Below are positions 16,227 to 19,910 of a stretch of DNA of 64,000 nucleotides, one piece after another (the stretch's first letter is position 1; the number at the start of each line of letters is the position of its first letter). Made by a program: the position numbers and the translations under genes. Below the pieces are notes generated by a model. It was not told the origin of the DNA. It saw only the letters and a program-made list of their open reading frames with translations, and made no database searches. Source of the stretch: the human T2T-CHM13v2.0 reference genome, Homo sapiens; the NCBI GenBank assembly GCA_009914755.4, contig CP068257.2, forward strand, positions 2,816,001 through 2,880,000. Reading direction: 5' to 3'.

Positions 16227-17200
16227 TGTTTTTCCATACATAAAAATAAGTTAATAAACAGATAAATAAAATAGACATGGATTTGCTTAGAATAAAGCTA
16301 ATTATAAGATAACAGAAAAGTGAGCACCAAAGATGGGGTTCACCTTAGCAAGTGATTCCAGCCTATTAGGACACTCACAGAATTTTCCCTGCAGCATGAC
16401 CGACATGAAAGTAGAATGTCATCATGTCAGGCTGTACCAGCTTTGGAAGACTAAACACTGTGGGGAAGAACCTCCCTTATGGAATATTATCAACAGGTGA
16501 GAGCCCAGCTCCTGCCCTGATGGGCTACAGAGATGAATTCTTGAGATAACACATTGCAGAAACATGCATAGAGTAGTTTAACCTTTTTTGTGTGTAACCC
16601 TTTCTCCATTTTCCTGCGAAATCCTCCCTAGTAATAGTGTTAGCTTTTAAGTTTTGAGGGTCTGGTAGGACTGAAGCTGCATGCTGCAGGAGATACCTGG
16701 GGCAGGAAACTAATACAAACTGCAGCCACAGGCACAAATACTCATGGTCTAATGTAAAGTGAAAACAATAGAAAGGTCTTTACTGTTATTCACCCAAGTG
16801 AGTGAACAGAGACTTTCCATATAACCAACTTGCCACTGAGACTAATGAAGGCCAGATTCCACTGGATCAAGAATATGAGTTACTCATGGGAAGATCACAG
16901 GACACAGCCCAGAGAGTTTTCATATTGGAGTCTGGGTACTGGATCTGTCCCGGTCTTCTTGGGTTTCTGTCTGTAGAGACCGCTATGTGGCTGCTCTTAC
17001 CACAGCCCGGTGCTGGCTGTGGTTGCTGGTTTAGTGCACCTGCTCTTTTTCCAAAAAGAGGGAGGAGTTGGCCACATCAAGCAGCTCCTAATCAATCTGA
17101 ATGCAGCTCTGTAAAAAGTGCCTAGAAACCATGCAAAGAAAAGTCAGTGGTCTGCCTTGTTTTCACCGTATGTGACACCTCCACTAGAAATTCTGCTTTT

Positions 17201-17247
17201 CTCTGCACTGCAGCCTGGGTGACAGAGCGAGGCTTCCTCAAAAAACA
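17201..17247 (+). mobile_element. 5'-truncated Alu 3'-end fragment
   Basis: 'ctctgcactgcagcctgggtgacagagcgaggcttcctcaaaaaa' is the extreme 3' end of Alu. A 12-bp TSD 'agaaattctgct' lies at 17186-17197 and 17445-17456. Confidence 0.85.
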
Positions 17248-17444
17248 AAAAGAAAAAGAAAAAGAGAGAAAGAAAGACATAAGGAAGTAAGGAAGAAGAA
17301 AGAAAGAAAGAAAAAGAAAGAAAGAAAGAAAGAAAGAAAGAAAGAAAGAAAGAAAGAAAGAAAGAAAGAAAGAAGAAAGAAAGAAAGAAAGAAAGAAGAA
17401 AGAAAAAGAAAGAAAGAAAATAAAAGAGAAAAGAAAAGAAAAGA
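17248..17444. repeat. (GAAA)n/(AAAG)n tetranucleotide microsatellite (about 200 bp) grown from the Alu A-tail
   Basis: Long, nearly pure run of 'gaaagaaagaaa...' immediately 3' of the Alu fragment and inside its TSDs. Confidence 0.95.
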
Positions 17445-18585
17445 AATTCTGCTCTTCAGATTAGGCACATAAGGAGAATCTGTATAAATCTCCAGCAAGG
17501 AAGGAAACCAGAGGACAAGTTAAAGTCTTGGAATTCACATCTGAGTACACAGACTCGGTCTCCAACCCTCTTCTTTTTATTCTGCCAGCTATGGCCTAGG
17601 TATGAACATGACAAGTACACAAGAGTTCCAACACCTGACAATCTGCTTCAATAAAAGAAGAGTGCCCTCCCTCTTGCTCCCCATACAACTCATGGTACTA
17701 AGAAATGGTGTGGGTCTTCCCAGATGAGTTGACAAGAGAGGCCTGGCTCTGGGGCCTGTCCTGGGCTGCCCTGTGTTATTTGTAGGTGCACCCGGCCAAT
17801 AGCCAGGGGCATCAATGATGAGGCCTGAGTTGACATCCGTGTTTTCAGATAAGGCTTTTGCACTGAGCCTTTGTAAGGTCAAAACTCAGAAATTTCAGGG
17901 CACAATGAAAGAACATCTCACTCTCTTGAGCATCTCTCACTAACAGCGGTGGATACAGAGCTGTCTCAAGAATGTGGGTTCCTGGTTTCTTAACTGATGT
18001 TGGGTTGTCACCAAGAAAGTGTGTTAAACTCTTCAAGGTTCCATCTACTGGGTCCCTTCTTTCTGTAAGACCTACCCAAAGGTCGCACTATGCTACTAAC
18101 TGCTCAGTCTCCTCTTCTATGTCAACTCTTCATTTGTACACAAATATGCAAACAAAACTTCCCCTTAATTCCCTGGAAAGAACTAAATGCAGCCTGGGTT
18201 CCAGGATATAAGAGACAGCTGGAACATAAACTTGTTTTTCTTACCATCTCTGGGACCTAATAAAAGTCACTGTGTATTTGAGGCTTCCCCAGCCTCCTAG
18301 CATGCACACTGGGGATGATGCTAACATCTACTTCCTAGGGATTGTATTAGATGTATATAAGATAAAACATAAAAATCATGATGTGGTGTTACCTGTAGAT
18401 AATGCACACACTTAGAGATGGAAGCATTAGGAGAATACGTAGGAGGTAGCATGGGCCACAACTCAAACAGTCCTGGGTCTGGCAGGGTGATCTTGGGAAT
18501 GTCACTTCTCCACTGGGCTTCATTTTCATTCTGCTCCAGTATGAAGTTGAAATTAAATGTAGATACTGTCCTCTGACATTCATAT

Positions 18586-18915
18586 AGTTTAGCTGTGTGT
18601 TCCACCCAAACTTCTCTGTGTATTATAACTGCCAGGTGTTAAGGGAGAAACCTGAGGGGAGATGATTGGATTATCGGGACGGGTTCTCCTCATGCTGTTC
18701 TTGTGATAGTGAGTTCTCATGAGATCTGATAGTTTCATAAGCATCTGGTATATCCCCTGCTCTCACTCACTTCACTTGTCAGCCACTGTAATTGGAAGGT
18801 TTCTGAGGTGCCCCTCCAATTATGTGGAACTGTGAGTCAATTAAACTTCTTTTCTTTATCAATTACCCAGTCTCAGGTACTTCCTCATTGCAGTATGAGA
18901 ATGATCTAATACAGC
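18586..18915 (+). mobile_element. MaLR solo LTR, THE1/MST-like
   Basis: 'gctgtgtgttccacccaaa...gatctgatagtttcataag...tgtggaactgtgagtcaattaaacttcttttctttatcaattacccagtctcaggtac...agtatgagaatgatctaatacag' matches the THE1/MST LTR consensus pattern. It is absent from the homologous position of copy B. Confidence 0.7.
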
Positions 18916-19559
18916 CATTCAACTTTCTAGTGCTTTCTCCTTATATTTAGAATCATATCCATGTGCCTTCTCACGTCTATGACAGGGGAAGTCTTCACAA
19001 AATCTCACAGTACTAGGTGGTTAGTGACTCAGTTTTTTATTGAATAAAATGGCCTACTGCCTGATGACAGTAGTATGGCCCTTGGGTTTTGACGAAAATA
19101 TCATGTTGTAGGTTGGCCAACAAGGAGATAGCAGTCCAGCTGAAATTTGTTTTTTTATACTGGCTTTAAGACAGTGATTAGAAAAGGCCTAAGAGGTGGG
19201 TTCTGTAAGGGATTGCTGGAAGGAAAGTAGGAATATGGAAAGTAATGAGACATATACAGTCATCTCTTCTTGCTTCCTCTCAGGTCACATGCAAATTCAG
19301 GGAGAGTTAGTATGAAACACACAATGGAAATTTGGGCTCTAACATATGCAATCTGATTCTTCATGGACTTCATTTGGCCATATCAGTTCCAACAATTTCA
19401 GCCAATGTTTAAAAATCTTATAAGCAGATAAAATTTTAGTGTTTCAACAAGCCATTTCCTATCTTTCATTCTGAAAATCCATTTTAAGTCATTTTTTTTA
19501 ACAGCATAGGGGTACAAATTCAGCTTCTGTCCAATGAAATACAGAAAAGGATATCACTT

Positions 19560-19910
19560 TTGTATTAGTTCAGGCTGCTATGGCAAAGAACCATAGATAA
19601 GCAGCTTATAGACAATAGGACTTAATTTCTCATACTTCTATAGGTTCGAAATTTGAGATCAGGTTGTCAGCATGGTTGAGCTCTGGTGATGACTTGCTTC
19701 TGAATTTCAGACTGCAGACTTCAAGTTTTATCCTCATTTTGCAGAAAGAGGATGAGAGCCCTCTGCGGTTTCTTGTATAAAGCCAGTAATCTCTATTATG
19801 AAGGTCCCACCCTCAGGAGTTAAGTACATCTTTCATCCGTATAGCATTACAACGGGGGTTACAATTTTAACACAAATATAGGAGAAAAATTATTGGAACT
19901 CTCAAGATTT
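19560..19910 (+). repeat. MLT1-like (MaLR) LTR terminal fragment
   Basis: 'gttcaggctgctatggcaaagaaccatagataag...ttctcatacttctataggttcgaaatttgagatcagg...tataaagccagtaatctctattatgaaggtcccaccctcagga...caacgggggttacaattttaaca' is the MLT1-type terminal module. Confidence 0.4.

What the first reader, a model, noticed from the sequence alone, without database searches (positions are those of the whole stretch)
16410..19910. Ancient direct duplication, copy A (partner at 60860-64000, about 44.5 kb away)
Two blocks of at least 3.1 kb, in the same orientation and order, share long colinear stretches at roughly 75-80% identity. This is far below the 90% or more typical of recent human segmental duplications. 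It fits a duplication of roughly eutherian-radiation age, which is my rough molecular-clock inference and not computed. Both copies end in the same MLT1-type LTR fragment, so that insertion predates the duplication. The insertions that differ between copies must postdate it: a THE1/MST LTR and a TSD-flanked Alu tail with (GAAA)n only in copy A, and an Alu plus (TA)n only in copy B. Such pairs of diverged paralogous non-coding blocks are typical of old tandem gene-family clusters. Alternatively both blocks are copies of an uncharacterised long, old interspersed repeat such as an ERVL-type internal region.
Basis: seen in the sequence. Interest (0 to 1): 0.5.

Follow-up and report, generated by a model that had tools for sequence, protein, structure and literature searches.

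The report
Ancient two-copy local DNA duplication
Two stretches of non-coding primate DNA 44 kb apart are decayed copies (about 69% identical) of one roughly 5-6 kb segment duplicated at about the time placental mammal orders diverged; this is an ordinary neutral relic with no sign of a gene or function.

Summary
Copy A (from 16444) and copy B (from 60846) are colinear on the same strand. Identity is 68.7-70.2%, not 75-80%.

The homology does not end at the MLT1-type LTR. Primate contigs that run past the window end show copy B continuing for another 3.4 kb, and this stretch aligns to window 20217-22965. Each copy is therefore about 6.5 kb, with 5199 alignable bases.

It is a genomic duplication, not a repeat family:
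- A conserved 21-base pattern found 23 metagenome contigs. All are primate orthologues of A (11) or B (12).
- A profile search of 1.84 billion proteins found only A or B orthologues and homologous contigs from two other mammal sources.
- The block is composite. It holds a minus-strand MLT1-type solo LTR and a MIR at the same positions in both copies, with shared sequence on both sides.
- No Pfam domain or constrained island was found, and CpG is depleted.

A carnivore homologue is equidistant from A and B, which puts the duplication near the primate-carnivore split (about 75-105 Myr, a rough estimate).

No paralogous exons flank the copies. Interest is low.

The parts
16444..22965 (+). Copy A of the duplicated segment, about 6.5 kb including about 0.9 kb of later insertions
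   Evidence: Colinear chain of alignments to copy B and to its continuation beyond the window. 5199 aligned bases, 68.7% identity, K2P distance 0.416.
60846..64000 (+). Copy B, cut by the window end. It continues about 3.4 kb further in orthologous primate contigs L015, L005 and L010.
19561..19882 (-). Shared MLT1-type solo LTR in copy A, nearly full length, on the minus strand
   Evidence: Smith-Waterman alignment to an MLT1 consensus recalled from memory: 72.3% identity, consensus positions 1-338 of 361, z = 72. There is no second LTR in the block.
63760..64000 (-). The same MLT1-type LTR in copy B. It runs about 80 bases past the window end.
   Evidence: 71.9% identity to the recalled consensus, z = 60. 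It sits at the homologous position in the A/B chain.
18379..18513 (+). Ancestral piece kept in A and lost in B. Most of it (to about 18478) aligns to the carnivore homologue. The MIR core lies at 18479-18533, extending just past this piece.
   Evidence: L028 957-1988 aligns to A 17450-18478. L028 has a full MIR at 1955-2177 (z = 38). The MIR core in A scores z = 7. B has the Alu and (TA)n at this point.
17199..17441 (+). A-only insertion: 5'-truncated Alu tail plus (GAAA)n, with a 12-base target-site duplication
   Evidence: AGAAATTCTGCT at 17186 and 17442. TRF array 17249-17446. B has the uninterrupted site.
18582..18913 (+). A-only THE1/MST-like solo LTR
   Evidence: 78% identity to a recalled THE1B consensus over positions 3-363, z = 66. 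A second family member lies in the window at 29733-30055. The empty site in B is read.
19918..20216 (-). A-only Alu, inserted just beyond the LTR
   Evidence: Matches other Alus in the window. TCAAGATTTTT at 19902 and 20219. B is continuous across the site.
62565..63036 (+). B-only Alu (62565-62853) followed by (TA)n (62854-63036)
   Evidence: The same Alu is present in B orthologues L001 and L002.
22966..26015 (+). L1 whose 5'-truncated end marks the right edge of detectable homology in A. It is 3'-truncated, so the original flank is lost.
   Evidence: tblastn with a recalled L1 ORF2 protein: residues 288-1274, 45-83% identity. The sequence ends inside the 3' UTR without poly(A).
59925..60845 (-). 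Very old L1 fragment whose 5'-truncated end abuts the left edge of copy B
   Evidence: Sequence reading. tblastn gives ORF2 residues 804-912 at 31% identity on the minus strand. There is no counterpart left of copy A.

Best explanation
A single DNA-level duplication copied a composite, non-coding genomic segment of at least about 5.3 kb to a second site on the same chromosome, in direct orientation. The segment already carried a MIR and a minus-strand MLT1-type solo LTR. The event happened close in time to the primate-carnivore split.

Both copies then decayed neutrally to about 69% identity. Each independently collected younger elements: Alus, a THE1/MST solo LTR, microsatellites and L1. Those insertions, together with the L1s and Alus in the spacer, pushed the copies to today's 44.4 kb offset.

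Shown: two-copy status, colinearity, composite content, absence of constraint, and the order of insertions. Inferred: the date and the mechanism. The mechanism was probably break repair or template switching, or a larger duplication later eroded by deletion. Neither can be read from the edges, because L1 insertions and a deletion have overwritten them. I attribute no function to it.
For: 1. Homology: 5199 aligned bases at 68.7% identity, spread evenly over seven colinear pieces.

2. Two loci only. The pattern ATGGAAATTTGGGCTCTNACAT returned 23 metagenome contigs. Each is 91.7-98.6% identical to A (11 contigs) or to B (12 contigs), and none comes from a third locus. A protein search with the B open frame found only B orthologues, one of which (L001) carries the same Alu. 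A profile search of 1.84 billion representative proteins gave 5 hits: A or B orthologues, a carnivore homologue and one unidentified mammal.

3. Composite content. Shared sequence extends 3.1 kb to the left and about 3 kb to the right of the single MLT1-type LTR. A MIR lies at the homologous place in A and in the carnivore homologue, and B keeps its downstream part (A 18514-18597 aligns to B 63036-63125).

4. Neutral decay. No Pfam domain was found in any of the six frames of the parts scanned: the in-window alignable parts of A and B and the right part of A. The best 60-base window reaches 88% identity, which is within shuffle expectation (p = 0.11). CpG observed/expected is 0.10 and 0.18, and the ts/tv counts are 926/701.

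5. Order of events. All copy-specific insertions have target-site duplications or an intact empty site in the other copy.

6. Age. K2P distance between A and B is 0.416. Carnivore contigs are equidistant from A and B, with A-unique sites 124-164 against B-unique 121-155. Least-squares branch lengths are about 0.23 (A), 0.20 (B) and 0.39 (carnivore).
Against: - No genome-wide search of a complete primate assembly was possible. A third copy diverged by about 30% would not carry the 21-base pattern and would have been missed. From zero extra hits at about 11-fold sampling per locus, I estimate that the scan only excludes families of more than roughly 15-20 copies.
- The repeat identities (MLT1, MIR, THE1, L1) rest on consensus sequences recalled from memory, not on a repeat library.
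- Both edges coincide with L1 ends, so the true extent and mechanism are not recoverable from the window.
- The relative-rate test against the unidentified mammal (L032) shows A longer than B (91 vs 57, p = 0.005). The carnivore test does not show this, so timing relative to the split is unresolved.
Confidence: 0.88

Rival explanations
1. Remnant of a much larger tandem duplication, with a unit of about 44 kb and possibly carrying a gene family. Only the first 6.5 kb of homology would have survived deletion and L1 turnover.
For: - Direct orientation, and a sharp left boundary at 16444/60846, as expected for a tandem junction.
- The L1 at A's right edge is 3'-truncated, which shows that a deletion removed whatever followed it. 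Homology could therefore once have run further.
Against: - About 6.9 kb of sequence downstream of copy B (L005/L010, past the last homologous piece) has no counterpart anywhere in window 22966-60845 apart from L1 and Alu family similarity.
- No paralogous exon-like matches flank the copies.
- No Pfam domains were found.
Confidence: 0.08
2. Two independent insertions of one long, uncharacterised, low-copy interspersed element, for example an ERVL/MaLR-type element with its internal region.
For: The block contains an MLT1-type LTR, and both copies start at the same point.
Against: - There is only one LTR. It lies in the middle, on the opposite strand, with shared sequence on both sides.
- No second LTR and no 5' LTR remnant were found (z = 0.1).
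- A MIR of a different family is nested at the same position.
- No gag, pol or transposase domain was found.
- All 23 pattern hits fall at the two loci.
- Only 5 hits came from 1.84 billion proteins, although mammalian host DNA is clearly sampled there.
Confidence: 0.03
3. RNA-mediated copy: an L1-driven retrocopy of a long transcript, or an L1 5' or 3' transduction.
For: L1 sequences touch the left edge of B and the right edges of both A and B.
Against: - There is no poly(A) or poly(T) at either end of either copy, and no target-site duplication around a copy.
- The L1 pieces at the edges are different parts of L1, of different age and orientation. A right: ORF2 residues 288 onward. B left: minus strand, residues 804-912 at 31% identity. 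B right: roughly ORF2 residues 860-1220, my conversion from its BLASTN match to the L1 in A.
Confidence: 0.01

Closest known systems
Ancient segmental duplications (70-80% identity class; SDquest, Pu, Lin and Pevzner 2018, PMC5991524)
   Same: A two-copy, non-transposon, composite genomic segment longer than 1 kb, duplicated within a chromosome. It is far older than the roughly 35 Myr (at least 90% identity) class. [quoted passage not shown]
   Different: At 68.7-70.2% identity this pair sits at or just under that tool's 70% cut-off. It is small (about 5-6 kb) and shows no mosaic of several source loci.
ERVL-MaLR (MLT1) LTR retrotransposon with internal region
   Same: It contains an MLT1-type LTR of about the right length, and an old non-coding sequence lies next to it.
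   Different: There is a single LTR on the opposite strand, in the middle of the shared block. There is no LTR pair. Only two genomic loci exist. A MIR is nested at the same place in both copies.
Old tandem gene-family cluster
   Same: Direct orientation and a spacing of tens of kb.
   Different: There are no paralogous exons, no protein domains and no homology outside the 6.5 kb block within the window.

Membership tests
Segmental duplication (ancient class) | Homologous segments of at least 1 kb that are not explained by a single common repeat | tested here: met
   5199 aligned bases. The shared block spans an MLT1-type LTR, a MIR and several kb of other sequence on both sides.
Segmental duplication (ancient class) | Low copy number in the genome (two, or a few) | tested here: met
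   23 of 23 pattern hits are orthologues of A or B. Protein and profile searches find no third primate locus. This is not a whole-genome search, so a few very diverged extra copies cannot be excluded.
Segmental duplication (ancient class) | Identity threshold of the operational definitions (at least 90% standard; at least 70% and at least 500 bp for SDquest) | tested here: inconclusive
   68.7% overall and 70.2% for the in-window part. This fails the 90% definition and is borderline for the 70% one.
Interspersed repeat family (ERVL/MaLR element with internal region) | Many dispersed copies | tested here: not met
   No third locus among the 23 pattern hits. Only 5 hits in 1.84 billion representative proteins.
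Interspersed repeat family (ERVL/MaLR element with internal region) | Paired LTRs bounding the internal region, with element termini at the ends of the homology | tested here: not met
   There is one LTR, in the middle. Upstream of A nothing resembles it (z = 0.1). Homology continues about 3 kb past it.
Interspersed repeat family (ERVL/MaLR element with internal region) | Remnants of gag, pol or transposase coding sequence (autonomous elements only) | tested here: not met
   No Pfam family was found at E below 0.09 in the frames of the parts scanned. Non-autonomous MaLRs need not have any.
MLT1 LTR (for the shared 320-base element only) | Sequence similarity to the family consensus over most of its length | tested here: inconclusive
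   72% identity over about 338 of 361 positions, z = 60-72. The consensus was recalled from memory, not taken from Dfam or Repbase.
Tandem gene-family cluster | Paralogous genes or exons accompanying the duplicated blocks | tested here: not met
   BLASTN with word size 7, comparing 1-22000 against 40000-64000, finds only the block and Alu-Alu matches. There are no long ORFs other than L1 and no Pfam domains. Genes outside the window were not testable.
L1-mediated retrocopy or transduction | Poly(A) tail and target-site duplication bounding the copy | tested here: not met
   Both ends of both copies were read directly. Neither feature is present.

The most novel reading that the evidence does not exclude
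The segment was retained in duplicate since the base of the placental mammals because part of it is functional (for example a regulatory element or a non-coding RNA exon), or it is the last visible trace of an ancient tandem gene duplication whose genes lie outside the window. The slightly over-dispersed identity profile does not exclude a short constrained element. Neither does the fact that homologues are still alignable in carnivores and another mammal.
Probability: 0.06. Interest if true: 0.3.

Novelty: new member of a known kind. Interest (0 to 1): 0.12.

Why it matters
It matters little biologically. It is one more example of the poorly catalogued class of segmental duplications older than about 35 Myr, sitting right at the detection limit of the tools built for them. 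Its practical value is as a clean worked example: a two-copy block with shared old transposons and copy-specific young ones, which gives an internal relative clock. It also shows that host DNA in metagenome collections can stand in for a genome-wide copy-number check.

Tried and rejected
1. I first read the block as MaLR internal region plus 3' LTR, with a 5' LTR remnant at 16300-16440. Alignment of 16211-16443 to the LTR gave z = 0.1. The LTR also turned out to be on the minus strand with homology on both sides. Rejected.

2. An Alu lies 0.9 kb upstream of each copy in the same orientation (15298-15584 and 59628-59901). Nothing between the Alus and the blocks aligns. I treat this as coincidence.

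3. A shared old L1 at the right edge. The L1 pieces in A and B are different parts of L1 and are not colinear. Rejected.

4. A simple 44 kb tandem unit. The 6.9 kb downstream of B has no non-repeat match in the spacer. Not supported.

5. Deciding whether the duplication predates the primate-carnivore split. Site patterns, indels (A-specific 8, B-specific 3, read) and quartets (AB|XY 17-29, AX|BY 10-22, AY|BX 11-18) do not resolve it.

I did not repeat it.

Full report
**Observation**

A BLASTN self-comparison confirms two colinear, same-strand blocks:
- 16444-17198 ~ 60846-61627
- 17442-18378 ~ 61615-62562
- 18514-18597 ~ 63036-63125
- 18916-19807 ~ 63104-63990

E-values reach 1e-134. Apart from Alu and THE1/MST pieces, nothing else in the window matches these stretches. 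A global alignment of the in-window parts gives 70.2% identity over 2283 positions, evenly spread.

**The homology goes further than the finding says**

I scanned the metagenome collection with a 21-base pattern conserved in both copies (ATGGAAATTTGGGCTCTNACAT, at A 19324 and B 63498). It returned 23 contigs. Every one is 91.7-98.6% identical to the window, either at copy A (11 contigs) or at copy B (12 contigs). They are host DNA from other primates.

Several copy-B contigs run past the window end. L015 is 98.5% identical and adds 2.8 kb, L005 adds 10.3 kb and L010 adds 8.7 kb. The sequence downstream of B in these contigs aligns to window 20224-21938 (68%), 21980-22467 (65-66%) and 22656-22960.

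The full chain has 5199 aligned bases at 68.7% identity, with 926 transitions and 701 transversions and a K2P distance of 0.416. Copy A is therefore 16444-22965. Copy B starts at 60846 and ends about 3.4 kb beyond the window.

**Duplication or repeat family**

Four lines of evidence point to a duplication.

1. No third locus appeared among the 23 pattern hits, although each of the two loci was sampled 11-12 times. By my estimate this excludes a family of more than about 15-20 copies that carries this motif. It does not exclude one or two further very diverged copies.

2. Protein-level searches find nothing else.
   - A search with the 115-residue open frame of B found three proteins, all B orthologues. 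L001 is 92% identical, and L001 and L002 carry the same Alu.
   - A profile search of 1.84 billion representative proteins gave five hits: A or B orthologues, a carnivore homologue and one from an unidentified mammal.

3. The block is composite.
   - Using consensus sequences recalled from memory (leads, not library matches), a nearly full-length MLT1-type LTR lies on the minus strand. It is at A 19561-19882 and B 63760-64080, with 72% identity and z = 60-72.
   - There are 3.1 kb of shared sequence on its left and about 3 kb on its right.
   - There is no second LTR and no 5' LTR remnant.
   - A MIR of an unrelated family lies at the homologous place in A (core 18479-18533). It is complete in the carnivore homologue at L028 1955-2177 (z = 38).

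4. No Pfam domain was found in any of the six frames of the parts scanned: the in-window alignable parts of both copies, and the right part of A.

**Later insertions**

- A only: a 5'-truncated Alu tail plus (GAAA)n at 17199-17441, flanked by AGAAATTCTGCT.
- A only: a THE1/MST-like solo LTR at 18582-18913, for which B shows the empty site.
- A only: an Alu at 19918-20216, flanked by TCAAGATTTTT.
- B only: an Alu at 62565-62853 plus (TA)n at 62854-63036. Here B has lost about 135 bases, most of which A shares with the carnivore.

**Edges**

On the left, homology stops sharply at 16444/60846. Copy B is abutted there by the 5'-truncated end of a very old minus-strand L1 at 59925-60845. Nothing upstream of A matches it.

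On the right, homology in A stops where a plus-strand L1 begins at 22966 (ORF2 residues 288-1274, by a recalled protein). That L1 is itself 3'-truncated at 26015, so a deletion has removed the original flank. In B the homology stops where a different, older L1-like sequence begins.

About 6.9 kb further downstream of B has no non-repeat match in the window. The original extent and the mechanism therefore cannot be read from these edges. A simple 44 kb tandem unit is not supported.

**No sign of function**

- Identity is uniform. The best 60-base window (88%) is within shuffle expectation (p = 0.11).
- CpG observed/expected is 0.10 and 0.18.
- No ORF longer than about 115 codons exists in either copy.
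- No paralogous exon-like matches flank the copies.

**Age**

The A-B distance is 0.416 (K2P), or about 0.21 per lineage.

Four Logan contigs (L027-L030) are homologous to the block. L029 and L030 are identical in their overlap. I assign them to carnivores because L028 begins with a sequence I recognise from memory as a CAN-SINE. They are 59-62% identical to both A and B over about 1 kb.

Sites unique to A number 124-164 and sites unique to B number 121-155. Least-squares branch lengths are about 0.23, 0.20 and 0.39. The three lineages thus meet at nearly one point. The duplication is about as old as the primate-carnivore split. I infer roughly 75-105 Myr, depending on the assumed rate ratio.

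Two contigs from an unidentified mammal (L031, L032) are closer to B than to A (p = 0.005). Quartet counts do not resolve the order. Whether the event came just before or just after the split stays open.

**Comparison with what is known**

Segmental duplications of 70-80% identity are a described class (Pu, Lin and Pevzner 2018, PMC5991524). This pair sits at the lower limit of that class. It is a new instance of a known kind, not a new kind.

**Verdict**

This is a real, ordinary, neutral ancient duplication. Interest is low.

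Noticed in passing
window 56227-56317 (-): Full-length Rfam match to the mir-1324 microRNA precursor family (87.1 bits, gathering score 70). It lies inside a GC-rich (0.44-0.58) but CpG-depleted stretch at about 52000-57500 whose nature I did not establish.
   Followed up: partly
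window 688-788 (-): Rfam Y_RNA match just above the gathering score (42.5 vs 38 bits). It is probably a Y RNA pseudogene, and it lies between old minus-strand L1 pieces.
   Followed up: no
window 22966-26015 (+): An L1 with a still-open 165-codon reverse-transcriptase fragment (23703-24200). The element is cut off inside its 3' UTR without poly(A), which implies a later deletion at 26015.
   Followed up: partly
L007 1871-2020, L011 5818-6143, L021 5709-6034: In three monkey orthologues of copy A, the sequence left of window position 17484 is replaced by DNA 80-87% identical to window 48527-48860. This looks like a lineage-specific insertion at the Alu-tail/(GAAA)n site.
   Followed up: no
P0004 (orthologue of window about 17600-18210): This 200-residue 'protein' in the public collection is host primate DNA translated with TGA read as Trp. 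It is a spurious gene call on contaminating host sequence. All the proteins found here (P0001-P0010) are artefacts of this sort.
   Followed up: partly
L031 and L032 (same sample, ERZ27260174): These two contigs are 91% identical to each other and both homologous to the block. They are either two related host species or a younger duplication of the same segment in an unidentified mammal.
   Followed up: no
window 49344-49441: A (CTT)n array of about 33 units interrupts a minus-strand L1 at 48763-50440.
   Followed up: no
window 15298-15584 and 59628-59901: An Alu lies 0.86-0.95 kb upstream of each copy in the same orientation, which mimics an extension of the duplication. The DNA between the Alu and the block does not align, so I judge this coincidental.
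   Followed up: yes
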